Of a stretch of DNA of 36,228 nucleotides, positions 476 to 10,806 are shown one piece after another. Positions within the stretch are counted from its first letter, which is position 1; every line of letters starts with the position of its first letter. The DNA comes from a virus. The notes under the pieces are model-generated. The model ran no database searches and was not told the DNA's origin. It worked only from the letters and a program-made list of their open reading frames with translations. The translations under genes were made by a program, and so were the position numbers. The stretch lies in UHGV virus genome UHGV-0248752. One strand, written 5' to 3'.

Positions 476-1087
476 TTAACCAACAACATTTTTCTTTACT
501 GTCACTGCCCCTGATTCCTGGGTGGCGTTATTGCTCGAGTTGTACTTCTCAATAACGCGCAAAATCTCTTTGTCTGTTTCTTCACTTCCCGCCATTCCTA
601 TCTTTATTGCATTTTTTAGTACGGGACGTAATGGCAAGGCATCAATGATGCTTTCTACCGCATCCTGGCTGATTGTAGATGTATTCATTGCTGCCAGCCT
701 GACAAGGTTGTTAGTACCTTCTCGCCTGATGAATGTAAGGATTAATTGCTTCTCTTGGGGGCTTAGAGAGCTAAGCGCCTGATCAATACCCGAACCTGAA
801 TCGCAATTTTTTCCGATTTTTCCGCATTCATCTTCGTTCTTGCCTGTGGCCAACCAGTCGAGTGAACAATTACAGGCTTTAGCTATTAAGGCCAGTTTAT
901 CCAAAGGAGGGAAGTTTTTCCCCTTCCTGTAATTTCTTACTGTGGCTTCAGATAGTCCACAAAGGGTCGCCAGTTCGACGTTTGTCATGTTTCCCATAGC
1001 CATAGCTAAGCGTTCTGAAAATCGGTTTATTCCTTCCATATCAATAAACCGTTCCGCACTGGATACGGTTTTTTCTGCCTTATCCAT
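476..1087 (-). CDS. Prophage repressor (c-like) with N-terminal XRE-type helix-turn-helix
   Basis: 203-aa ORF transcribed divergently from ner/A/B at the left end. N-terminal segment TNVELATLCGLSEATVRNYRKGK fits an HTH_XRE motif. Position matches the Mu c repressor. Confidence 0.75.
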   Translation of the reverse strand: MDKAEKTVSSAERFIDMEGINRFSERLAMAMGNMTNVELATLCGLSEATVRNYRKGKNFPPLDKLALIAKACNCSLDWLATGKNEDECGKIGKNCDSGSGIDQALSSLSPQEKQLILTFIRREGTNNLVRLAAMNTSTISQDAVESIIDALPLRPVLKNAIKIGMAGSEETDKEILRVIEKYNSSNNATQESGAVTVKKNVVG

Positions 1088-1520: not shown

Positions 1521-3611
1521 ATGTGGGTAACAGCAAAAGAATGTGTTGGTCTTCCTGATTTACCAATGATGGAACATAACATTCGCCATCGACTCACAAA
1601 AGCAGCTGCGGGAAATGCAGCCATGTTACGCAAACGTAAGGGGACAAAAGCAATCGAATTTAATATCGATTGTTTGCCTTCTGGCGCGCAACAAGTATTG
1701 CGTGAACGTTATGCCCTTCAACTGATGACGCAAAAAGCTGATGAATCACCGGCTCCGGTGGTGACAAAGGCCAGACGCTCATCTGCCGTGGTTGATGCGG
1801 TGGAGGCATATCGCGGATCACCACAACTGATGCTCGAACGCCTCAATGCCCTGACTGAAAACCAGCGCCAGGTGGCTGATGCACGAATCGCGATCGTCAG
1901 CGAAGTTCTGAAAGTCGCGCAACAACCTGGTTTCAGCTGTGCGAAGGCTATCCGGTTTATCGTTGACAACCTGGCACGTTCGCAACTGGACGAGCGCATT
2001 GTGGCAATGGTTGAGACGGCGAACGCCAAAAAGGGAAACAGCCGTGCGTTGAGTGAAATCACGCTGAAACGCTGGATTGCGGCCTTTAACAAGGCACAGA
2101 ACGCCGCTGAACGCCTGCTTTTACTGGCACCGGGTAAACGCCAGGAAATAAAAGCCGAAGATATTAACTGGCTGCCCGAATTTCTGGCGCAGTATCGCCA
2201 GTCAAACGGCCGACCAATGACCGAGGCTTACGAGGATTTTGTTGCTGAATGGCAGCACCGGCACGCTGATGAGCCTTATATGCTCGATATCATGCCCTCT
2301 TATGACACCATTCGCCGCGCAATGAAGAAACTGCCGGAAGTGGTGAAACAAAAAGGCCGGGTAACTGGCAGTGAATACCGTCAGCTTGAGGGATTCACGC
2401 GCCGCGACTGGTCCAGAATGCCGGTGAATTATGTCTGGATTGGTGACGGTCACGGCATGAAGCTGAAATGCGCGCACCCGGTTCACGGGCGGCCATTCGC
2501 ACCGGAAGTGACCTTTGTTATCGACGGTGGCACGCGCTTTGTGGTGGGCTGGAGCCTTGACCTGGCTGAAAATGTTTTCGCCGTAGCCGGTGCCATACAG
2601 CACGGTATTCGCCATCATGGCAAACCGTTTCTGTATTACTCGGATAATGGCTCCGGGGAAACCGCCGACGTCCTGGATAAGGAGATTGTGGGGATACTGC
2701 CACGACTGGGGATTAATCACCCGACAGGGATTGCCGGTAATCCGCAGGGACGGGGCATTATCGAACGGCTTAACCGCACATTACCGATGCGCATAGCCCG
2801 TAAATACCGCACCTATTTCGGGAAAGGAGCAGATCGCGAGACGTTACGTAAAACCAACCGCGATTTACGCTCGGCATTCAGTGCCCTGCAACAGGGCAAA
2901 CGGCTGAACGCCCGGCAGCAGTCAGCGATGCGTGATTTACCGTCCTGGTCTGAACTGATTGATGCCATTCGTGACGGTGTTGAGTGGTACAACAACCGGC
3001 CGCACGATGAATTACCCATGAAGCCGAACGGTAAACATTACAGCCCGGCGGAGTTCAGAAAAAAACGCCTGGCGGAAGAGGACACGGAAATTGAATGGCT
3101 GTCCGATGTTGAACTGCGGGATATGTTCCGGCCGATGGTGGAGCGCCCTGTAAGACGCTGTGAAATACGCTGGCTGAATAATATTTACTACGCGCCCGAG
3201 CTGCGTGACGAGCATGGCCGTAAGGTACTTATCAGCTATGACATTCATGATGCCGAACGAATTACCGTGCGCCGCCCGGATGGCAGCGTGATTTGCGAGG
3301 CGGTATGGGACGGCAATAAACGCGAAGCCTTCCCTGTCAGCGCGGAATACTACAAACAGCAGCAGCGCCTTAAAGGCATGCGTAAACGCGCAGAGGAAAA
3401 AATCCGTGATGCCGAGGATGAGGTTGTCAACGTGCTGGAGCACAAGCCGCAGGAGCCCTGGCTGGAAAACATATACCGCCCTGTGGGTAATACGGTGACC
3501 GTTCAGCAACCGGTCGCTGACGATGAACCTGATGAAGAATACGAGCGTAATTTCCAGCGGGGATTGCAACTGCTCGAAGCGAAATTAAAAGAAAGTGAGC
3601 CGCTGGCCTGA
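1521..3611 (+). CDS. A: MuA-like DDE transposase
   Basis: 696 aa. N-terminus WVTAKECVGLPDLP resembles MuA WVSPKECANLPGLP. Candidate DDE residues lie in WIGDGH, YSDNGS and IERLNRT. Position after ner. Confidence 0.93.
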   Translation: MWVTAKECVGLPDLPMMEHNIRHRLTKAAAGNAAMLRKRKGTKAIEFNIDCLPSGAQQVLRERYALQLMTQKADESPAPVVTKARRSSAVVDAVEAYRGSPQLMLERLNALTENQRQVADARIAIVSEVLKVAQQPGFSCAKAIRFIVDNLARSQLDERIVAMVETANAKKGNSRALSEITLKRWIAAFNKAQNAAERLLLLAPGKRQEIKAEDINWLPEFLAQYRQSNGRPMTEAYEDFVAEWQHRHADEPYMLDIMPSYDTIRRAMKKLPEVVKQKGRVTGSEYRQLEGFTRRDWSRMPVNYVWIGDGHGMKLKCAHPVHGRPFAPEVTFVIDGGTRFVVGWSLDLAENVFAVAGAIQHGIRHHGKPFLYYSDNGSGETADVLDKEIVGILPRLGINHPTGIAGNPQGRGIIERLNRTLPMRIARKYRTYFGKGADRETLRKTNRDLRSAFSALQQGKRLNARQQSAMRDLPSWSELIDAIRDGVEWYNNRPHDELPMKPNGKHYSPAEFRKKRLAEEDTEIEWLSDVELRDMFRPMVERPVRRCEIRWLNNIYYAPELRDEHGRKVLISYDIHDAERITVRRPDGSVICEAVWDGNKREAFPVSAEYYKQQQRLKGMRKRAEEKIRDAEDEVVNVLEHKPQEPWLENIYRPVGNTVTVQQPVADDEPDEEYERNFQRGLQLLEAKLKESEPLA

Positions 3612-3684
3612 AATAAAAAAATAACCCGAGGGGTGACTCAGGTTATTTGAGGTTTCAGTCTCGGAGAATGCTGTCTCAAGCGAG

Positions 3685-4626
3685 GTGAATAATATGACCG
3701 ATATTAACGATGTAATCAAGACCATTGATGAACTTATTGATGGCGGCGTACTGACGCAGTATGCCATCGCCAGAGAGGCGGGAATTTCCGACGGCACATT
3801 ATCGGCTTTCCGTAAGGGAAAATATAAAGGCGATAACGCTGCTGTGGCTGCTTCCCTGCGCTCCTGGTATGAGAACTGGAATAAACAAAGCGCACTGCCG
3901 GAACCGCCGCAGTTTGTGGAAACTCAGACAGTCCAGGAGCTGCGCGCACTGTTTCAGGCGGTTCGCCTGATGGGCTGTATTAACGTTATTGTGGGCGTAC
4001 CGGGTGTGGGTAAAACGGCCACTGCCCGTAATTACTGCCAGGAGCAACCAAACACCTGGATGATCACCCTGTCACCCGCGCACTCCAGCGTCACGGAGTG
4101 TCTGCTGGAGCTGGCCGATGCGCTGGGGATTGATTACACCCGCGCGAACAAAGGGGCATTATCCCGCGCCATCCGCCGTCGCCTGACGGGAACGCGTGGA
4201 CTGGTGATTGTGGATGAGGCGGATCATCTTGGTATTGACGGTCTGGAGCAACTCCGGGCAATTCAGGACGCCACGGGGATCGGGATGGTGCTTATTGGTA
4301 ACCCGCGCGGATTGTTTAAAGGTGGACGCCGCGCCTTTGATGATTTATCGCGCCTGTTCAGCCGTCTTGCCCGTACAAAACAACTTCGCAAGGCCAAAAA
4401 GGCGGATGTGCTGGCCATTGCCAGGGCATGGGGTATCAGTGGTGAGGCCGAGCTGGCCGTCATGCAGGCTATCGCTGAAAAGCCGGGAGCATTACGTGTT
4501 CTGACACATACGCTTAACCAGGCGTGGCTCACCGCCAGCGGTGAAGGCGCGGCGCTGACAGAAAAACATATTAATGCGGCCTTTAAAGAGGTTTATACCA
4601 ACCCTGAATTACTCTCACAGGTGTGA
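3685..4626 (+). CDS. B: MuB-like transposition ATPase / target DNA activator
   Basis: 313 aa. Walker A GVPGVGKT and Walker B VIVDEADHL. Extended similarity to my recollection of MuB (DKYNGDN / LPEPPRFVETQTV / KPGALR). Position after A. Confidence 0.93.
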   Translation: MNNMTDINDVIKTIDELIDGGVLTQYAIAREAGISDGTLSAFRKGKYKGDNAAVAASLRSWYENWNKQSALPEPPQFVETQTVQELRALFQAVRLMGCINVIVGVPGVGKTATARNYCQEQPNTWMITLSPAHSSVTECLLELADALGIDYTRANKGALSRAIRRRLTGTRGLVIVDEADHLGIDGLEQLRAIQDATGIGMVLIGNPRGLFKGGRRAFDDLSRLFSRLARTKQLRKAKKADVLAIARAWGISGEAELAVMQAIAEKPGALRVLTHTLNQAWLTASGEGAALTEKHINAAFKEVYTNPELLSQV

Positions 4627-4850
4627 TTATGGCGGTATTTAATATTCCTGATATTTACGGACGCTTTTACCTGGTTAATTTCGATAACGTGAAGGTGATT
4701 TCACTGGCCGAAAATAAAGCATGTGGCGATTTACTTTTTGAATTTAATGACCGCACACGAATGGTGATATCTGCCGGACTTGATCGCGAAGGTGCGACAG
4801 AAGTTTACAGCGGAATATGCCGTTCTGTTGGTGCGAAACAAGTCAGCTAA
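4623..4850 (+). CDS. Hypothetical early protein in the kil position
   Basis: 75-aa ORF immediately after B, as kil is in Mu. No recognisable motif. Start may be the ATG at 4629 rather than the GTG at 4623. Confidence 0.5.
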   Translation: MIMAVFNIPDIYGRFYLVNFDNVKVISLAENKACGDLLFEFNDRTRMVISAGLDREGATEVYSGICRSVGAKQVS

Positions 4851-5117
4851 ATGAGGTGTTATATGAATATGCAATCCTGCGGTAACAAAATGAATTTATT
4901 CGACTCCCTGAACAGCGCGCGCCGTCTGACCGAACTTGCCGGTGCGGTACTGGAACGCAGTAAGCGCTATCCGCAACGTTTTGCACTGAAAACCACGCCG
5001 CCGGTAGGCAACGTGCAGGGAACCGGTGAAATTGAAATCACCATACAGACCAACGGCCTGCGCCGCCGTGTGAAGGCCACCCGCATCAGCGGCTGCACGG
5101 TTTACTGGGAGGTGTGA
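4851..5117 (+). CDS. Hypothetical early protein
   Basis: 88-aa ORF, co-oriented and tightly packed in the early operon. No recognisable motif. Confidence 0.5.
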   Translation: MRCYMNMQSCGNKMNLFDSLNSARRLTELAGAVLERSKRYPQRFALKTTPPVGNVQGTGEIEITIQTNGLRRRVKATRISGCTVYWEV

Positions 5118-5118
5118 G

Positions 5119-5400
5119 GTGAAAAAAAATCTCATTGCATGGGCGTGGTCGAGTGGTCTTATTGAGTTTGGTTACGTCCTGCCGGAAGGTGCATTGCCGA
5201 TAGTTGCCGGAAAGCCCGCCACGGTACGGCATGTGATTGATGTTGTGGCGCGTCATGGACGCGATGAACAGGAACAGCTACTGGTTCCTGGAATACCGGA
5301 AGCGGTGACGGAAGAAGAAGCCTTTAATGCCATGGTTCAGTTCTGCCGTGAGGTCAGACGCCGGGTCAGTTATCCAAACAGAACGAGGGCCAGAGGATGA
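5119..5400 (+). CDS. Hypothetical early protein
   Basis: 93-aa ORF starting 1 bp after the previous stop, with start/stop overlap to the next gene. Confidence 0.5.
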   Translation: MKKNLIAWAWSSGLIEFGYVLPEGALPIVAGKPATVRHVIDVVARHGRDEQEQLLVPGIPEAVTEEEAFNAMVQFCREVRRRVSYPNRTRARG

Positions 5401-5669
5401 GTAAAGTCGTGCGCATTATTTTCGAATACAAGGAGGACGTTATCCGTAAAAACGCTGATGGAACAGTGCACATGGGGGTAAGTCTGGATATACGTTCAAC
5501 CGGAATAAAGCAGAAAAATGATAGCCCCGCCATGATTTTTGGGGTGGTTATGCTGGCAGAAAGCAGAAACTTCGCAGAGCTTGTGGCAATGAAAGCCAGT
5601 GCATTCATGAAAGACAGGGGCATGGCTTCCGGGGTTATTAACGGTAATGAATTTAATCAGCAGGGGTAA
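5397..5669 (+). CDS. Hypothetical early protein, paralogue 1 (MSKVVRIIFEY...)
   Basis: 90-aa ORF whose N-terminus MSKVVRIIFEYKED resembles that of the next ORF (MSKVRVIFEFEH). Looks like a tandem duplicate. Confidence 0.55.
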   Translation: MSKVVRIIFEYKEDVIRKNADGTVHMGVSLDIRSTGIKQKNDSPAMIFGVVMLAESRNFAELVAMKASAFMKDRGMASGVINGNEFNQQG

Positions 5670-5673
5670 TTCC

Positions 5674-5967
5674 ATGAGCAAAGTACGCGTTATTTTTGAA
5701 TTTGAGCATGTTTCGCATGACGAAAAACCGGCAGGCAATGACAGTGTTGAAGTGCATGAAAAGATTGGTGTGGATGTAAAAACAGAACGTGATACGGATA
5801 ACAGGCCGACGTCACTCTGTGACGTTTATGCAAGTATTCTCCAGTATCACAGTCCTGAAATTATTCAGTTTCTCTCAGCGGAATTTCAGGCATCTGTACA
5901 GGCTTTTGGGGCGGATGCCATCATTAAACGCCACCGCGTGCATAAAGCATCAGGCACACTGCAATAA
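5674..5967 (+). CDS. Hypothetical early protein, paralogue 2 (MSKVRVIFEFEH...)
   Basis: ATG at 5674 with RBS-like aggggtaa upstream. 97 aa. N-terminal similarity to the preceding ORF. Confidence 0.55.
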   Translation: MSKVRVIFEFEHVSHDEKPAGNDSVEVHEKIGVDVKTERDTDNRPTSLCDVYASILQYHSPEIIQFLSAEFQASVQAFGADAIIKRHRVHKASGTLQ

Positions 5968-5978
5968 GGAAAAACAAA

Positions 5979-6509
5979 ATGGCTAAACGCGTTACAAAAT
6001 TAAAGGCCGCAGCCGAGGCAGCACCGCAGACCCGTGAAGAGGTCAGCCGCGATATCCGACGCTTTGGGGATATGCAGCGTGAGGCACTACGCCTGGAAAC
6101 GGCGATGAATGACGAAGTGGCAGAAATCACCGCCCGTTATACGCCGCAGATTGAAAACCTTAAAAAAGAAATCAAAGTGCTTTTTAAGGGGATTCATGAC
6201 TGGTGTAAAACCAACCGCAATGAGCTGACGAACGGCGGCGAAACCAAAACAGCCAATCTGACCACCGGAACGGTGTCATGGCGGCTGGGAACGCCATCAT
6301 GCAGCGTCAGCCGTGATGTGGAAGGCGTGATTGAAATGCTGCGCCGTATGGGCCTTGAGCGCTTCATCCGCACGAAAGAGGAAGTGAATAAGCAAGCTGT
6401 CCTGGCGGAGCCAGATGCGGTGAAGGGCATTGCCGGTATAAAGGTGAATAAAGGCGCTGAAAGTTTTTATGTCGAGCCTTTTGAACAGGACGCCGGACTG
6501 AATAAATAA
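5979..6509 (+). CDS. gam: Gam, host-nuclease inhibitor (Ku-like DNA-end binding protein)
   Basis: 176 aa. Long collinear match to my recollection of Mu Gam: DIRRFGDMQREALRLETAMNDEVAEIT, ELTNGGETKTANLTTGTVSWR, LERFIRTKEEVNKQAVLAEP, FYVEPFEQDAG. Confidence 0.92.
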   Translation: MAKRVTKLKAAAEAAPQTREEVSRDIRRFGDMQREALRLETAMNDEVAEITARYTPQIENLKKEIKVLFKGIHDWCKTNRNELTNGGETKTANLTTGTVSWRLGTPSCSVSRDVEGVIEMLRRMGLERFIRTKEEVNKQAVLAEPDAVKGIAGIKVNKGAESFYVEPFEQDAGLNK

Positions 6510-6606
6510 CACCGCATTAAATCTTTAAATATCACATCGTGTTAATTATGGCGCTCGCGTCAGGGGACTGCCTGCGCCTGTAAACTGAAAATAAGGAACA
6601 GGAAAT

Positions 6607-7149
6607 ATGGCATATTTTTATTTCAAATTAGACATAGTGTACACAAATAAATATTTAACCGAATATCAGCGGGATGTTTTACCGCTACGCAACAGTATTC
6701 TTCGGGCATTACTGAAAAATACAGGCGCTGCCGGATTGCGCTTAAAGCCGTTCGCCATGGACGTAATCAGTGAGTTTTATTTTTCTGGTTCTCTGCCTGC
6801 GGGCTGGCGTAAGCGCGATGATGTGGCTTTTATCGGGGACGGACCGTGCTTTATTGCCAGACCTGATGAGTCATGCCCTGAAGGTCCGGCGATTGCCGCA
6901 ATGATTGAAACCGCTGAACGTGAGTTAAGAAAGCGTCCTGATTTCCTTGTCTGGCTCTGTGAAAAGCTGGGGGTAATGAGAATCCCCTCCATGTTTAACA
7001 CGGACTCCTGGTGGACCCCGTCGCTCTCCCGTGATGCCCTGTGCGTGGTGTTTAAAGTAGGCGCTTATGGCAGGGAAATAAAAGGGGGTATTCCTGAAGA
7101 ATGCCAGGAAATTAAACATTCTGAATATGTGGCGCTGACGGAGGAATAA
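6607..7149 (+). CDS. Hypothetical early protein
   Basis: 180-aa ORF in the semi-essential early region. AT-rich 5' end, so the true start may be downstream. No recognisable motif. Confidence 0.45.
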   Translation: MAYFYFKLDIVYTNKYLTEYQRDVLPLRNSILRALLKNTGAAGLRLKPFAMDVISEFYFSGSLPAGWRKRDDVAFIGDGPCFIARPDESCPEGPAIAAMIETAERELRKRPDFLVWLCEKLGVMRIPSMFNTDSWWTPSLSRDALCVVFKVGAYGREIKGGIPEECQEIKHSEYVALTEE

Positions 7150-7152
7150 TTC

Positions 7153-7686
7153 ATGATTGATGCAAAAGTGCTTGAAGGGGTTAAAAGCTGGCTGCGTTTT
7201 TCTGGCCGTCTGACCAGTCGTTCTCTGGCAGAAAAAATGAATATGCCGCTATCCTCCATGGTTTATTTTCTGCGTGATGCGGTCGATGCCGGGGTGCTGA
7301 CGGACCGTAACGGTTTTTATGATATTCCGCGTCCCCGCCCGGTGCAGGCGGTTCGTCGCAAATGCAGCCAGGAAGGTGCGGCTGATGATGTTCAGTGGTG
7401 CAGCTTCAGAAAATCCCTGCCGTGGATTGAGGGGCATGATATTCCGTCGATGGCGTGGGAATTTGCTCAGGGAGTACTGACCTGCGAAACCGTTTATGTG
7501 GTGGCTGAAGTTGATGAGCAGGCCATGAAAGAAGGCGTGCCCCAGTTTGTGATGGCGTATATCGACATTCGCCTGGGCGTCATTATCTGCGGCTTAAGCG
7601 GCTGGAACATCACCGGGCGCGTTCTGCGTTACCTGATTATTGACCGGACAGCGGCATCGGCAGGGATATCTGCGGAGGTGGCGTAA
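7153..7686 (+). CDS. Hypothetical early protein, possible winged-helix N-terminus
   Basis: 177 aa, starting 4 bp after the previous stop. The N-terminal 45 aa have a winged-helix-like pattern. Function unknown. Confidence 0.5.
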   Translation: MIDAKVLEGVKSWLRFSGRLTSRSLAEKMNMPLSSMVYFLRDAVDAGVLTDRNGFYDIPRPRPVQAVRRKCSQEGAADDVQWCSFRKSLPWIEGHDIPSMAWEFAQGVLTCETVYVVAEVDEQAMKEGVPQFVMAYIDIRLGVIICGLSGWNITGRVLRYLIIDRTAASAGISAEVA

Positions 7687-8201
7687 TGTTCTTTAAAACA
7701 TCAAACCCTTCCGCGCTGGCTGCGTGGCAAAAATACCAGCAGGACTGCCAGAAAGTTAAGGATGAGGCAAAACGCCTTGAGGCCGTGCTGAATGTTGCGT
7801 GCCGGTCGGTATTTGTATCCGGTATCAGTGGATTTTGCTTTAAGGGACTGCGTTTTACGGAGGACAAATATCCTTTTCATCGCGACTTATGGCGAAAACC
7901 GACTGCGTCGAATGGCTGGAGCTGCACACCGCGCACATCACGTATCCCTAAAACCCTGCGTGTTGCCTCTGATGAACTGAACAGTCTGTGGCGTGAATAT
8001 TCGCCCGTCACGTATGCCAGAACCGATGCGCTGTTGTTCTGGCTGGGTATTGATTTCTCGGCAATCCTGTTTGGCCCTGTGAAGTGGTTCTGCGTTGACG
8101 ATGTGATTTACCTTCAGTGCGGCGTAAAACCCGCAAAACAGAAAATGACCGAAATACTGTCTGATGAGTTTTATGCTGCTGAAAAGCGAGTCAGGGGGTG
8201 A
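7686..8201 (+). CDS. Hypothetical early protein
   Basis: 171-aa ORF with start overlapping the previous stop. No recognisable motif. Confidence 0.5.
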   Translation: MFFKTSNPSALAAWQKYQQDCQKVKDEAKRLEAVLNVACRSVFVSGISGFCFKGLRFTEDKYPFHRDLWRKPTASNGWSCTPRTSRIPKTLRVASDELNSLWREYSPVTYARTDALLFWLGIDFSAILFGPVKWFCVDDVIYLQCGVKPAKQKMTEILSDEFYAAEKRVRG

Positions 8202-8204
8202 TGC

Positions 8205-8756
8205 ATGATGAAATTACAACCCATGGGACTAAAAGGTCGCGCCCCCGCTCATGTCCGTCCGTGGACACCTGAAGAAGATGCGCTGCTGATTGCGCTTTAT
8301 TCATCCACCCCGGTTAAGGATATTGCTGCCAGAATAAAAAGAACTGTCTGGGCTGTATATAACCGGACTGGTGTATTGCGCAGTTCATACCCGGAGTTAC
8401 TGAAATATAAACACCCAAGATTTACACCTGATGAAGATAAGTTTATTCGAAAAAATGCCAGAACAATGACCTGCCAGCAAATGGGAGAATATCTCGGACG
8501 TAATAAAGATTCTGTCAGATGTCGGGCAGGAATGATTGGTGCTGGATTAACAAAGTGCGGAGAGTTACGCCCCGGCACGCGCATATCTGATGATGATGTA
8601 CGTCTTATACGTGCGCTGCGTGATTCCGATTACCCACGCCGTCTGTCATTCCGGGAAATTGGCGAAAAGTTTGGAATATCTGAACATTCTGCTCACGCAG
8701 TTTATTACCGTCGCCGGACTGCCGAGGACGCTGTATTACGGGAGTTAACGCCATGA
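8205..8756 (+). CDS. Hypothetical protein with three W/F-TP-EED helix-turn-helix-like repeats, putative DNA binding
   Basis: 183 aa containing WTPEEDALLIALY, FTPDEDKFIRKNA and ISDDDVRLIRAL spaced about 50 aa apart, reminiscent of Myb/SANT-type repeats. Function not established. Confidence 0.5.
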   Translation: MMKLQPMGLKGRAPAHVRPWTPEEDALLIALYSSTPVKDIAARIKRTVWAVYNRTGVLRSSYPELLKYKHPRFTPDEDKFIRKNARTMTCQQMGEYLGRNKDSVRCRAGMIGAGLTKCGELRPGTRISDDDVRLIRALRDSDYPRRLSFREIGEKFGISEHSAHAVYYRRRTAEDAVLRELTP

Positions 8757-9085
8757 TAACGACCTTATTTGTTGAATCAGATGAACCTCTTGTGTGTGCC
8801 GCCGGAATGCCGCTCTGTGGCGGAACGCTGACCGGCGTTTATTTCGGGGATTTGCGCGGTTATCCCTGGCATTCACTGGATGACGCATTTCCGCCTGATA
8901 TGGAGGCTGTCGTGCTGATTGTTCAGTATGGTGACCAACAGGAACTGCGCATCGGCCATATGGGGTATGAAGGCTTTTTTATTGATGAAGAAACCGGAGC
9001 CTGCCTTGAAGATGAGGACGGACAGGTGACGCACTGGTGCCATCTTTCGGCCTTGCCGGAATTACAGGGGATACATAATGGATGA
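8753..9085 (+). CDS. Hypothetical early protein
   Basis: 110-aa acidic ORF whose start overlaps the previous stop (translational coupling). Confidence 0.5.
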   Translation: MITTLFVESDEPLVCAAGMPLCGGTLTGVYFGDLRGYPWHSLDDAFPPDMEAVVLIVQYGDQQELRIGHMGYEGFFIDEETGACLEDEDGQVTHWCHLSALPELQGIHNG

Positions 9086-9221
9086 GCAAATTGTTGAATG
9101 TCCCACCTGTGGAAATGAGGACCCGGAGTATCTGAAAGAGTGCCCACATTGTGGTGAGATAAAATGTAACCACTGCGATATGGGCGACGACACTGCATGT
9201 ATAAATTGTGAGGATGAATAA
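9078..9221 (+). CDS. Small zinc-ribbon-like miniprotein (four Cys pairs)
   Basis: 47-aa ORF MDEQIVECPTCGNEDPEYLKECPHCGEIKCNHCDMGDDTACINCEDE. Not in the ORF track (under 60 aa). ATG overlaps the upstream stop. Four Cys pairs (CxxC, CxxC, CxxC, CxxC). Confidence 0.45.
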   Translation: MDEQIVECPTCGNEDPEYLKECPHCGEIKCNHCDMGDDTACINCEDE

Positions 9222-9222
9222 T

Positions 9223-9510
9223 ATGGAAAAAGAAATCAAATTTGCGCCTAAATCTATCGACGAAGAACTGGCTAAAATCGGCATGCTTGAACGTATGCGG
9301 GACATTATCGAATATGCGATAAAAGAAAATCTTGCAGCCAGAGAAGCCCTTTTGATAATGGAGCGGGAGATTAACCTGATTAAGGATGCTGTATCTCTGG
9401 ATAATAAAATAGCCCGCGAGGAATACGTTCGCCGCAGGCTCGGTGTTGATGGTTCAGCAATTCTTACATCTGAACATTATGCAAAAATTTTTAATCTTTT
9501 TCAGCGGTAA
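9223..9510 (+). CDS. Hypothetical protein in a low-GC island
   Basis: ATG at 9223 (MEKEIKF...) directly after the zinc-ribbon stop; the track ORF starts earlier at 9208. 95 aa, Lys/Glu-rich with coiled-coil character, AT-rich codon usage. Confidence 0.5.
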   Translation: MEKEIKFAPKSIDEELAKIGMLERMRDIIEYAIKENLAAREALLIMEREINLIKDAVSLDNKIAREEYVRRRLGVDGSAILTSEHYAKIFNLFQR

Positions 9511-9730
9511 TCCCCATACAGGCCCGGAGATTGTCGAAATGCCGGTCGGTATTAATATATGAGCCATCCTGGATATCTTCTGCATTTTCCGGGGTAGAGT
9601 TTTTTTGAGCGAGATTGATAATATGTATTGCCTCCTCACGGGAAATCAGCCCCTTATCGAACAGGGTTACCATAAGATTTCCAGCCATTGTGAATGCGGC
9701 AACATCAAGTGCATTTTTTATATCTGACAT
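9491..9730 (-). CDS. Hypothetical protein encoded antisense to the early operon
   Basis: 79-aa minus-strand ORF with RBS aagga 7 nt upstream of its ATG (reverse complement of 9731-9745). Converges on and overlaps the 3' end of 9223-9510 by 20 bp. Low-GC region. Confidence 0.4.
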   Translation of the reverse strand: MSDIKNALDVAAFTMAGNLMVTLFDKGLISREEAIHIINLAQKNSTPENAEDIQDGSYINTDRHFDNLRACMGITAEKD

Positions 9731-9800
9731 AGATTTTTCCTTTTATGTTAATTGACATGGCGGTGCGGTAACACCGCCCATTTTTTATGGAGCCACGATA

Positions 9801-10313
9801 ATGAATCGCGCTTCCCTGATTACCTTAATACATGTCGCAAAACGCGATCTACAGCTTGACCATGATACCTATACATCCGCGCTGCTGGCAGCCACCGGCA
9901 AATCCAGTTGCCGTGATATGTCACCCGGTGAGTTATCCCGCGTGCTGGATGTTTTCAAAAAACGCGGTTTTAAAGTGCGTCAGAAGCCGGTTAACCGGGC
10001 CTTAAAACCGGGTACGGTGACCGCCAAAATTCGCGCCATCTGGAAAGTGATGCACCGGCAGGGATTTATCTCTGATGGCGGGGAAACGGCCCTTAACCGC
10101 TGGGTGAAATCGCAGACGGCCGCGCAGAACGACGGCGAAGGTGTGGCTAACTGGCAGTGGCTGGAGCAACAACCCGCGCTGGCCTCTGATGTGCTGGAGC
10201 GTCTCAAACGCTGGCACCGCCGCAAAATGCTGGCAGCCCTGGATATGTCGGAACGTGCAGTGATGAGTTATGAGCGTGTTTGCAGGCTGTATGAAAAATC
10301 ATTCCCCCGTTAA
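9801..10313 (+). CDS. GemA-like protein (Mu gp16 family)
   Basis: 170 aa. N-terminus LITLIHVAKRDLQLDHDTYTSALLAATGKSSCRDMSPGELSRV fits the pattern I recall for Mu GemA. Position immediately upstream of the Mor/C gene, as in Mu. Confidence 0.75.
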   Translation: MNRASLITLIHVAKRDLQLDHDTYTSALLAATGKSSCRDMSPGELSRVLDVFKKRGFKVRQKPVNRALKPGTVTAKIRAIWKVMHRQGFISDGGETALNRWVKSQTAAQNDGEGVANWQWLEQQPALASDVLERLKRWHRRKMLAALDMSERAVMSYERVCRLYEKSFPR

Positions 10314-10317
10314 CCCC

Positions 10318-10349
10318 AAATCCCGCCACAGCGCGGGATTTTTATTTTA
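10318..10349 (+). terminator. Rho-independent terminator after the gemA-like gene
   Basis: Stem aatcccgc / gcgggatt with a short loop, followed by TTTTTATTTT, directly after the stop at 10311-10313. Confidence 0.6.
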
Positions 10350-10383: not shown

Positions 10384-10806
10384 ATGGCTGAAACACAGAT
10401 GAGCATGTTTGGTGACAGCGAACAGCTGCACGCGCTGATTGACCGTCTGGATGATATTCCTGATGATGAGCTGAAAAAGAACTGGCCCGGCACGCTGCGG
10501 GACCTGGTTGATGTGATCAGTGCTGAACTGCACCGTCAGGGGATTGAACCTGCTCAGGCGGGAATGCTTGCCCGTAAGGTTGCAGCCGCACAGGCCGGGT
10601 ACATGGGCGGGCGTGGTTATTATCTCCCGGTCGGTGAATCCCTTTTCACCGAACTGCGCAATAATGAAATTTTTTCCCGCTGGAGCCAGGGCGAAAAAAT
10701 TGAAACCCTGCGCCGCCACTACCAGATGTCAGAGACGCAGATTTACTCCGTTATCCGCAACCAGCGTCGCCTGCATCAGGAGCGCACGCAGCCCCGGCTT
10801 TTCTGA
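10384..10806 (+). CDS. Mor/C-family transcriptional activator of middle/late genes
   Basis: 140 aa. C-terminal GRGYYLPVGESL...IYSVIRNQRRL matches the Mor/C pattern (YIPRG ... VY.AIR..RR). Cannot distinguish Mor from C. It is the only family member between gemA and the lysis genes. Confidence 0.85.
   Translation: MAETQMSMFGDSEQLHALIDRLDDIPDDELKKNWPGTLRDLVDVISAELHRQGIEPAQAGMLARKVAAAQAGYMGGRGYYLPVGESLFTELRNNEIFSRWSQGEKIETLRRHYQMSETQIYSVIRNQRRLHQERTQPRLF

What the first reader, a model, noticed from the sequence alone, without database searches (positions are those of the whole stretch)
4623..9085. Early semi-essential block of about ten uncharacterised small genes, including a tandem paralogue pair
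Between B and the gemA-like gene, apart from Gam, lie tightly packed translationally coupled ORFs of 75-183 aa with no recognisable function. Two adjacent ORFs (5397-5669 and 5674-5967) share an N-terminus (MSKVVRIIFEY versus MSKVRVIFEFEH), suggesting tandem duplication and divergence. In Mu this region encodes host-takeover and anti-restriction functions, so it is the most likely place for novel anti-defence genes.
Basis: partly seen in the sequence, partly recalled or inferred. Interest (0 to 1): 0.45.

Follow-up and report, generated by a model that had tools for sequence, protein, structure and literature searches.

The report
Mu-like prophage early accessory gene block
This is the ordinary "semi-essential" early gene block of a Mu-like E. 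coli prophage: its small genes are real but mostly of unknown function, two neighbours are ancient duplicates, and nothing yet shows any of them blocks host defences.

Summary
The window is an Sp18-type Mu-like transposable prophage of E. coli. This block occurs at 90-97% identity in 232 of 5426 complete E. coli genomes.

All eleven ORFs at 4623-9085 are real. They are tightly packed and under purifying selection (dN/dS 0.1-0.5).

Several are not fully uncharacterised:
- w02 is a Kil homologue.
- w08, w09, w12 and w13 are homologues of Mu gp11, gp12, gp13 and gp14.
- w07 is DUF5420-like.
- w10 is a Myb/HTH DNA-binding protein.

The proposed paralogue pair (5397-5669 and 5674-5967) holds up as remote homologues. 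BLASTP is marginal. A profile that includes distant relatives aligns 64 columns (hhalign 93.5%). No shuffle out of 5000 reaches the HMM score, and both AlphaFold models share one topology. Related prophages carry a single copy, always just upstream of Gam or DUF3164.

The "host nuclease inhibitor" label on w03 traces to a one-base frameshift in the phage D3112 gam record.

No ORF matches a known anti-defence or defence protein, a solved structure or a paper, so the anti-defence reading is untested.

Mu has it too.

The parts
4623..4850 (+). w01, 75 aa (PGAP-equivalent ATG start at 4629). Conserved small protein directly after B. Function unknown.
   Evidence: phrog_3375, E 4.5e-46. A 51%-identical homologue sits in the same position in the distant prophage L099. 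A 70-80 aa gene follows B in L102-L107. dN/dS 0.25.
4851..5117 (+). w02, a Kil homologue. The true start is probably 4890 (75 aa) or 4863 (84 aa), not 4851.
   Evidence: phrog_2679 'Kil', E 7.8e-46. 33% identity to the C-terminus of Mu Kil. Mu Kil cross-hits phrog_2679. The 67%-identical L099 homologue carries PF26843 Kil_protein and starts at MTNLFDSL. Alternative starts are listed.
5119..5400 (+). w03, 93 aa. An optional cassette, homologous to the gene next to gam in Pseudomonas Casadabanviruses. The 'host nuclease inhibitor' label is an annotation artefact.
   Evidence: phrog_1518. 43-47% identity to DMS3-12, JBD69 gp14 and the C-terminus of D3112 'gam'. The D3112 fusion comes from a 1-nt deletion. 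The gene is missing from about a third of related E. coli loci.
5397..5669 (+). w04, 90 aa. The diverged extra paralogue of w05, seen only in the E. coli Sp18-type lineage.
   Evidence: phrog_4107. All homologues found are from E. coli. hhalign to the w05 family gives 93.5% over 64 columns. The AlphaFold model is poor (pLDDT 60) but has the same strand-strand-helix order as w05.
5674..5967 (+). w05, 97 aa. Member of a small family always encoded immediately upstream of Gam or DUF3164. Predicted fold is a long beta-hairpin plus two helices.
   Evidence: phrog_2230. Only 11 hits among 1.84 billion representative proteins. Synteny is shown. The AlphaFold model has pLDDT 85.5. There is no specific fold match.
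5979..6509 (+). Gam, the Ku-like protein that binds double-stranded DNA ends.
   Evidence: PF07352, E 7e-40. 55% identity to Mu Gam. dN/dS 0.09.
6550..6578 (+). Conserved intergenic hairpin, preceded by a conserved AT-rich tract, in the only non-coding gap of the block.
   Evidence: Conserved in Mu, SfMu and seven other loci that were retrieved through proteins. 92 of 118 IMG/VR pattern hits lie just after Gam or DUF3164. Covariation: 86% of cells paired versus 29-51% in slid controls, and 0/500 shuffles reach the observed score. Folding energy is -14 to -20 kcal/mol. It occurs once in the window. No Rfam match.
6607..7149 (+). w07, 180 aa, DUF5420-like. Absent from Mu. It has a second allele at 24% identity in related prophages.
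   Evidence: phrog_2260. 40% identity to SfMu gp11, annotated 'DUF5420'. 31% identity to the L099 gene that carries PF17457.
7153..7686 (+). w08, a homologue of Mu gp11 (formerly E10-12). The N-terminus looks like a winged helix and the C-terminus is the Gp11_C domain.
   Evidence: PF25754, E 2.7e-39. 63% identity to Mu gp11. Only a weak AsnC-type resemblance at the N-terminus.
7686..8201 (+). w09, a homologue of Mu gp12 (E13).
   Evidence: 54% identity to Mu gp12. phrog_2314. Relatives carry PF26885 Phage_Mu_Gp12.
8205..8756 (+). w10, 183 aa, basic (net charge +13). A Myb/SANT-like plus HTH DNA-binding protein in the same PHROG as Mu gp9/E8.
   Evidence: Sub-threshold Pfam Myb and HTH hits. 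phrog_323, E 2e-52. Mu gp9 is also in phrog_323. PGAP names it 'SANT/Myb-like'.
8753..9085 (+). w11, 110 aa, strongly acidic (pI 4.1, net charge -17). Function unknown.
   Evidence: phrog_6925. A weak DUF551 hit, E 0.06 and below the Pfam cut-off. 82% identity in L099, where its neighbours are about 53% identical. No PDB hit with a family profile.
9078..9510 (+). w12 (9078-9221, 47 aa, acidic zinc ribbon, matching the C-terminus of Mu gp13) and w13 (9208-9510, matching Mu gp14).
   Evidence: 88% identity to Mu gp13 and 49% to Mu gp14.

Best explanation
The block is the semi-essential early region of an Sp18-type Mu-like transposable prophage of E. coli.

Inferred from Mu, it is read as one polycistronic early message together with ner, A and B. 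It supplies accessory functions that are not essential but help lytic growth.

Shown here by homology:
- a Kil-type host-killing or division-blocking protein (w02);
- the Ku-like end-binding protein Gam, which shields phage DNA ends from RecBCD;
- homologues of Mu gp11, gp12, gp13 and gp14, whose functions are unknown;
- two probable DNA-binding proteins (w08 N-terminus and w10).

Around this backbone sit swappable small cassettes (w03, w04, w07 alleles and w11).

w04 and w05 are diverged paralogues of a small alpha/beta family with a long beta-hairpin and two helices. The ancestral single copy always sits immediately upstream of Gam or of DUF3164, the protein that replaces Gam in some relatives. 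The E. coli lineage carries an extra, faster-diverged copy.

My best guess for the family is an inference only. I think these are small protein-binding adaptors that act with the end-protection module on host DNA-end or replication proteins, not enzymes.

The conserved hairpin after Gam most likely acts at the RNA level. It could be an intercistronic stability or processing element, or a protein-binding element, that sets the relative expression of the genes on either side.
For: Identity of the element:
- B, Gam, GemA and Mor/C Pfam hits.
- Gene-by-gene matches to Mu and SfMu.
- The block is in 232 of 5426 complete E. coli genomes, and PGAP calls the same genes.
- Sp18 is described as an intact Mu-like prophage (PMC2669165).
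- Mu's semi-essential genes are described as being on the early transcript and largely of unknown function (PMC3820752).

Coding status: dN/dS 0.09-0.5 and tight coupling of the genes.

Backbone versus cassettes.

Paralogy:
- Sequence and profile tests.
- Matching predicted topology.
- Single copy in relatives with an invariant gene order: 21 loci with w05-like then gam; 15 with w03, w04, w05, gam; 6 with w04, w05, gam; 2 with w03, w05-like, DUF3164.

Hairpin.
Against: - No function was demonstrated for any product except by homology (Kil, Gam).
- The w04 model has low confidence (pLDDT 60.5).
- The link between the w05 family and Gam or DUF3164 rests on gene order alone. Gene order is conserved across the whole operon, so it is weak evidence for a functional link.
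- w04 is about as far from w05 (22% identity) as from the single-copy relatives (27%). In-situ tandem duplication therefore cannot be told apart from an older duplication followed by loss, or from acquisition by recombination.
- Transcription as one early operon is inferred from Mu and was not measured here.
- The hairpin could act at the DNA level.
Confidence: 0.7

Rival explanations
1. Anti-defence island. Under this reading, the lineage-specific small proteins (w01, w03, w04, w05, w11) inhibit host defence systems. They would be expressed first on infection or induction and would sit next to Gam, the RecBCD antagonist.
For: - Early position, small size and cassette-like presence or absence: w03 is missing in about a third of loci, w07 has alleles at 24% identity and w05 has alleles at 61%.
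- w11 is strongly acidic like DNA mimics, with net charge -17.
- A Mu-type Gam of another phage was reported to inhibit SIR2+HerA and DUF4297+HerA and to trigger a retron (bioRxiv 10.1101/2024.04.14.589459).
- Mu-type Gam licenses Gabija (PMC12407980), which gives a motive for nearby counter-measures.
Against: - No similarity to any characterised anti-defence protein, solved structure or paper.
- dN/dS is well below 1 for every ORF.
- w01, Kil and the w05 family are conserved backbone genes in several distinct prophage lineages rather than rapidly exchanged cargo.
- No dedicated anti-defence profile library was available to search.
Confidence: 0.2
2. w04 did not arise by tandem duplication in place. 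It is a distant family member brought in by recombination with another phage, or the survivor of an older duplication that the relatives later lost.
For: - w04 is 22% identical to w05 and 27% to the single-copy relative P0071, while w05 is 30-35% identical to those relatives.
- The region is visibly mosaic.
Against: - w04-like sequences were found only next to w05 in E. coli Sp18-type elements. No separate donor lineage was seen.
- Fast divergence after duplication explains the distances equally well.
Confidence: 0.3
3. The w04/w05 resemblance is not homology. It would be a short N-terminal motif kept by chance or by a shared constraint such as translation initiation or a common beta-strand.
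For: - In the direct pairwise comparison all the signal lies in the first 12 or so residues.
- PHROGs keeps the two proteins in separate families.
Against: - The profile alignment extends over 64-84 positions.
- An HMM built only from non-E. coli members, which lacks the MSKVRVIFEFEH sequence, still scores w04 at 15.6 bits, against a maximum of 11.7 in 5000 shuffles.
- Both models have the same secondary-structure order.
Confidence: 0.07

Closest known systems
Semi-essential early region of Escherichia phage Mu (kil through gemA; AF083977)
   Same: - Same position after B and the same tight single-strand packing.
- Homologues of Kil, Gam (55%), gp11 (63%), gp12 (54%), gp13 C-terminus (88%), gp14 (49%) and GemA (46%).
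- The same conserved hairpin in the gap after gam.
   Different: - Mu gp6, gp7 and gp8 have no detectable counterparts here.
- w01, w03, w04, w05, w07 and w11 have no detectable Mu counterparts.
- The Myb/HTH gene lies after gp12 instead of before gam.
- Kil is the second gene after B, not the first.
Prophage Sp18 of E. coli O157:H7 Sakai and its relatives (Mu-like elements inserted in Stx phages, LC727881 and LC727895)
   Same: The same block at 90-97% nucleotide identity with the same gene calls, all annotated hypothetical except Gam and the Myb-like protein.
   Different: The differences are allelic and mosaic: w03 present or absent, different w05 and w07 alleles, and a different gene set between w11 and gemA.
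The gene next to gam in Pseudomonas Casadabanviruses (DMS3-12, JBD69 gp14; fused to gam in the D3112 record)
   Same: 43-47% identity to w03 over about 75 residues. It is a small early gene close to Gam in a transposable phage.
   Different: It lies downstream of gam there and upstream here. No function has been shown for it. The 'host nuclease inhibitor' name comes from a frameshifted record.
Intercistronic stem-loops of polycistronic phage and bacterial mRNAs (RNase III sites of T7 early mRNA, REP-type stabilisers, lambda boxB). This comparison is recalled from my own knowledge, not tested.
   Same: A stable conserved hairpin in an intergenic gap of a long early operon, with no U-run after it.
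   Different: There is no sequence or Rfam match. The stem is short (12-13 bp), and no processing or protein binding has been shown.

Membership tests
Mu-type semi-essential early region | Lies between the transposition gene B and gemA/mor, on the same strand, in a Mu-like transposable phage | tested here: met
   Pfam finds B (Phage-MuB_C), Gam, GemA and Mor. The gene order is shown.
Mu-type semi-essential early region | Transcribed early from Pe and dispensable for plaque formation | not testable with these tools
   Inferred from Mu only (PMC3820752).
Kil (Mu-type host-killing / septation inhibitor) | Sequence membership in the Kil family | tested here: met
   phrog_2679, E 7.8e-46. 33% identity to Mu Kil, with a reciprocal PHROG cross-hit. 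A 67%-identical relative carries PF26843.
Kil (Mu-type host-killing / septation inhibitor) | Expression kills or filaments the host | not testable with these tools
   This needs an expression experiment.
Tandem paralogue pair (w04/w05) | Statistically supported homology between the two adjacent products | tested here: met
   hhalign 93.5%, E 2e-7, 64 columns. HMM E 9e-5 among 1984 ORFs. 0 of 5000 shuffles reach the score. The direct BLASTP is only marginal.
Tandem paralogue pair (w04/w05) | Same fold | tested here: inconclusive
   Both models have the same element order, a beta-hairpin followed by helices. The w04 model has pLDDT 60.5 and the w05 model 85.5. No tool was available to superpose the two models.
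Tandem paralogue pair (w04/w05) | Duplication arose in place: relatives have one copy and the duplicate groups with its neighbour | tested here: inconclusive
   Relatives do have one copy. However, w04 is equidistant from w05 and from those relatives.
Host nuclease inhibitor (the label on phrog_1518 and on NCBI names for w03) | Homology to a protein shown to inhibit a host nuclease (Mu Gam PF07352, lambda Gam, Abc2, gp5.9) | tested here: not met
   w03 has no Pfam, NCBIfam or PDB hit. The label derives from D3112 'gam', where a 1-nt deletion joins Gam to the next gene.
Mu gp7 (E6) family as the counterpart of w05 | Profile-level homology | tested here: not met
   Mu gp7 hits phrog_2230 only weakly (E 0.009). 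hhalign of the two family alignments gives a probability of 0.4%. Both alignments are shallow.
DUF551 (C-terminal domain of lambda Ea22) for w11 | Pfam score above the gathering threshold | tested here: not met
   14.6 bits against a cut-off of 22, E 0.06. The family profile finds nothing in the PDB.
Known anti-defence proteins | Similarity to a characterised inhibitor, or a demonstrated rescue of phage from a defence system | tested here: inconclusive
   No hits in Pfam, NCBIfam, PADLOC, the PDB or the literature. No dedicated anti-defence library and no experiment were available.
Structured RNA element (hairpin 6550-6578) | Conserved base pairing with compensatory changes across relatives | tested here: met
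   86% of cells are paired versus 29-51% when the partners are slid. There are 28 double-change cells versus 10 in shuffles (0/500). The pair that the search pattern did not constrain shows AU 11 and GC 9. Caveat: several positions were fixed by the search pattern.
Structured RNA element (hairpin 6550-6578) | Membership of a described RNA family | tested here: not met
   Rfam finds nothing at gathering thresholds or at E up to 10.

The most novel reading that the evidence does not exclude
The w05 family (duplicated here as w04 and w05) and the Gam-neighbour protein w03 may form an unrecognised accessory module of the phage's DNA-end protection system (Gam or DUF3164). They could, for example, tune or shield end binding so that it does not trip defences that sense RecBCD antagonism, such as Gabija or retrons. 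The conserved hairpin just downstream would be a new regulatory RNA element of Mu-like early operons.
Probability: 0.12. Interest if true: 0.55.

Novelty: new member of a known kind. Interest (0 to 1): 0.25.

Why it matters
Mu-like prophages are common in pathogenic E. coli, and about 4% of complete genomes carry this block. Their early accessory genes have stayed a blank for forty years.

This work turns a vague "uncharacterised block" into a map:
- which genes are conserved backbone;
- which are swappable cassettes;
- which annotation is wrong (the "host nuclease inhibitor" label);
- which pair is a true duplication;
- where a conserved non-coding element lies.

That map tells an experimenter what to delete first. 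If the Gam-adjacent small proteins do modulate end protection or counter a defence, the result would bear on how transposable phages cope with RecBCD-linked immunity. As things stand, the region is ordinary.

Tried and rejected
1. Mu gp7/E6 as the counterpart of w05. It sits in a similar position, has a similar size and gives a weak PHROG hit. hhalign gives only 0.4%, so I did not claim it.

2. D3112 Gam as a true fusion of Gam and w03, which would link the two functionally. I rejected this. Alignment with DMS3 shows a single missing base in the D3112 record, and DMS3 and JBD69 have two separate genes.

3. Structural neighbours for w05.
   - BFVD gives nothing.
   - afdb50 was not available.

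4. Sequence or profile searches of the PDB for w03, w07, w08, w09, w10 and w11 found nothing.

5. PADLOC and NCBIfam found nothing meaningful.

6. DUF551 for w11 is below threshold.

7. A genome-contig scan for the w05 family found one extra locus only, in Citrobacter braakii.

8. Literature searches for the families, for RefSeq accessions and for Mu early-transcript structure found nothing specific.

9. The hairpin as a small ORF. I rejected this because the frame and length are not conserved; many variants read ATG-GCG-TAA.

10. The hairpin as an intrinsic terminator or sigma-70 promoter. The consensus scans did not detect either.

11. Rfam has no family for it.

12. The weak similarity of w01 to the Mor N-terminus (E 7e-4 in a tiny database) was not pursued.

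Full report
**What the window is**

The 36.2-kb window is a Mu-like transposable prophage. It encodes:
- a CI-type repressor (476-1087, minus strand);
- a Ner-like protein;
- a Mu-type transposase A;
- B (3685-4626; Phage-MuB_C);
- the block in question;
- GemA (9801-10313);
- one Mor/C-family activator (10384-10806);
- a lysozyme.

The block matches two "inserted Mu-like phage" regions in Stx phage records at 90-92% identity. It matches 232 of 5426 complete E. coli genomes at 90-97%. These include O157:H7 strains, whose Mu-like prophage Sp18 is described as intact (PMC2669165). Phage Mu itself matches only at about 68%, and only across gam to gp12.

**Checking the observation**

The junctions are 4-nt or 1-nt overlaps or gaps of 0-11 nt. 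The exception is a 97-nt gap after Gam. PGAP calls the same genes in the closest genome.

Against distinct alleles in related loci, every ORF shows dN/dS of 0.09-0.5. B is 0.06 and Gam 0.09. The genes are therefore real and under purifying selection, which is somewhat relaxed for w04, w05 and w07.

**What the genes are**

| ORF | Coordinates | Assignment |
|---|---|---|
| w01 | 4623-4850 | Conserved gene of unknown function that follows B in all related lineages examined |
| w02 | 4851-5117 | Kil homologue; relatives start at the internal MNLFDSL, so the real start is probably 4890 |
| w03 | 5119-5400 | See the section on w03 |
| w04, w05 | 5397-5669, 5674-5967 | The proposed paralogue pair |
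| Gam | 5979-6509 | 55% identical to Mu Gam |
| w07 | 6607-7149 | DUF5420-like (40% to SfMu gp11); absent from Mu |
| w08 | 7153-7686 | Mu gp11 homologue (63%; Pfam Gp11_C) |
| w09 | 7686-8201 | Mu gp12 homologue (54%) |
| w10 | 8205-8756 | Basic Myb/SANT-like plus HTH protein, in the same PHROG as Mu gp9/E8 |
| w11 | 8753-9085 | Strongly acidic (net charge -17); only a sub-threshold DUF551 hit |

w12 matches the C-terminus of Mu gp13 (88%), w13 matches Mu gp14 (49%), and a minus-strand ORF follows.

About half the ORFs therefore belong to catalogued Mu early families. Those families themselves have no known function. PMC3820752 states that the semi-essential genes are "largely unknown".

**The paralogue pair**

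The direct comparison is marginal:
- BLASTP gives E=0.009 and 22% identity over 74 residues.
- The Smith-Waterman score beats 99.6% of shuffles.
- Nothing remains once the first 12 residues are removed.
- Both families are nearly confined to E. coli in the 5.8-billion-protein search.

An exhaustive HMMER search with the w05 profile found only 11 proteins among 1.84 billion. Five of these are full-length relatives at 27-31% identity. Adding them changed the picture:
- hhalign of the w04 family against the w05 family gives 93.5% probability, E 2e-7, over 64 columns.
- The w05 HMM picks w04 as the only other hit among 1984 ORFs from twelve loci (E 9e-5).
- No shuffle out of 5000 reaches its score. 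This holds even with an HMM built only from the non-E. coli members (15.6 bits against a maximum of 11.7).

The AlphaFold model of w05 has pLDDT 85.5. It shows a long beta-hairpin (4-21 and 24-39) followed by two helices. The w04 model is poor (pLDDT 60.5) but has the same order of elements.

Gene context:
- In six prophage loci that carry the distant family members, and in a Citrobacter braakii genome, there is one family member. It lies immediately upstream of Gam or of DUF3164, which occupies Gam's place.
- Among 119 further loci the only gene orders seen were: w05-like then gam (21 loci); w03, w04, w05, gam (15); w04, w05, gam (6); and w03, w05-like, DUF3164 (2). There were also three singletons that showed extra family or gam hits in the same order.

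So w05 is the ancestral copy and w04 is an extra copy of the E. coli lineage. Because w04 is as far from w05 as from the relatives, I cannot say whether it arose in place and then diverged fast, or is older, or was acquired.

**Function of the w04/w05 family**

Nothing informative turned up:
- BFVD gave nothing.
- The AlphaFold database library was unavailable.
- A link to Mu gp7/E6 is not supported.

**w03 and a wrong label**

PHROGs and NCBI call w03 relatives "host nuclease inhibitor". tblastn shows 43-47% identity to a stretch of Pseudomonas Casadabanvirus genomes.

In D3112 that stretch is the C-terminal third of a 266-aa "gam". In DMS3 and JBD69, Gam is 172 aa and the w03-like protein is a separate gene. 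The D3112 record differs from DMS3 by one missing base just before the Gam stop.

The label is therefore carried over from a frameshifted record, and no nuclease-inhibitor evidence exists for this domain. What remains is proximity to gam in two very distant groups of transposable phages. The domain also occurs alone in Burkholderia podophages, and at the N-terminus of a longer protein near rdgC in a Stenotrophomonas phage.

**Variation**

Within E. coli the block is mosaic:
- w03 is absent from about a third of loci.
- A 139-aa gene is sometimes inserted before Kil.
- w05 has alleles at 60-62% identity.
- w07 is replaced by a 24%-identical allele or is missing.
- The stretch between w11 and gemA differs between genomes.

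**The anti-defence reading**

This pattern fits accessory genes, and Gam-type proteins do interact with defences. However, no ORF resembles any known anti-defence or defence protein. Selection is purifying, and several members are backbone genes. I rate the anti-defence reading at about 0.2. It remains untested rather than refuted.

**An unnoticed element**

The single gap in the block (6510-6606) holds a hairpin at 6550-6578, GGCGCTCGCGTCAGGGGACTGCCTGCGCC, after a conserved AT-rich tract.

- It is conserved at the same place in Mu, SfMu and seven other loci retrieved through proteins. This holds whether Gam or DUF3164 lies upstream, and whether DUF5420, gp11 or another gene lies downstream.
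- A pattern scan of IMG/VR gave 120 hits, and 92 of the 118 that could be assessed lie directly after Gam or DUF3164.
- On 27 distinct variants, 86% of cells pair, against 29-51% when the partners are slid. Double changes exceed every one of 500 shuffles. A pair the pattern did not constrain splits AU 11 and GC 9.
- Folding energies are -14 to -20 kcal/mol.
- It is unique in the window and absent from Rfam.
- It is not annotated in either Mu record.
- No U-run follows it, and it is not a conserved small ORF.

Its role is unknown. I think an RNA-level stability, processing or protein-binding element is the most likely.

**Verdict**

The anti-defence idea is only a possibility. This is a known kind of region in a common, already sequenced prophage family, so overall interest is low to moderate. 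The useful by-products are the gene map, the corrected label and the conserved hairpin.

Noticed in passing
window 6510-6606 (hairpin 6550-6578); Mu AF083977 about 6368-6397: A conserved stem-loop with compensatory changes sits after Gam or DUF3164 in Mu, SfMu and many Mu-like prophages. It is preceded by a conserved AT-rich tract. It is not annotated in either Mu record and is not in Rfam. Its function is unknown.
   Followed up: yes
L108 (D3112, AY394005) 2976-3776 versus L111 (DMS3) 675-1476: The 266-aa D3112 'gam' results from one missing base relative to DMS3, which fuses Gam to the next gene. This seems to be the source of the 'host nuclease inhibitor' name on phrog_1518 and on NCBI entries for w03 relatives.
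   Followed up: yes
window 10384-10806: Only one Mor/C-family activator lies between gemA and the lysis genes. It is closer to Mu C (40%) than to Mu Mor (28%). Mu has two such regulators, so the middle/late cascade may be organised differently here.
   Followed up: no
window 476-1087 (minus strand): The repressor is a CI/HTH_3-type protein (Phage_CI_repr), not a Mu c-type repressor. Related loci L105 and L106 have the same type, while L107 has a Mu-type repressor.
   Followed up: no
L099 6303-6941; L105 and L106 5303-5941: In some close relatives a 212-aa DUF3164 protein replaces Gam exactly, with the same flanking genes and the same downstream hairpin. This suggests the two are functional analogues.
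   Followed up: partly
window 8753-9085 (w11) and 9078-9221 (w12): w11 is very acidic (net charge -17). It is 82% identical in L099, where neighbouring proteins are only about 53% identical. w12 is an acidic 8-cysteine zinc ribbon that is 88% identical to the C-terminus of Mu gp13, while its neighbours are about 50% identical. Both are unusually conserved for this region.
   Followed up: partly
window 9491-9730 (minus strand), within the low-GC stretch 9001-10000 (GC 0.45): A 79-aa ORF on the opposite strand (phrog_32893) overlaps the end of w13. It has dN/dS 0.28 against five alleles. SfMu has a minus-strand gene at the same place. It may be a moron-like insert.
   Followed up: no
window 9759-9778 and 10318-10341: Terminator-like hairpins with T-runs flank gemA on the plus strand. 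They may mark the end of the early transcript and the start of a separate gemA unit, as in Mu.
   Followed up: no
window 4623-4850 (w01): There is weak local similarity between the w01 C-terminus and residues 31-69 of Mu Mor (38% over 39 aa, E 7e-4 in a 42-protein database). It is probably chance.
   Followed up: no
L108 (D3112) orf15, 4089-4577: By eye, the N-terminus of D3112 orf15 (MCRIDGLIELREEHPGEGYFALAVGD...) resembles the w03 domain motif. w03 also hits phrog_12417, a 162-position profile. The domain may therefore occur twice in Casadabanviruses.
   Followed up: no
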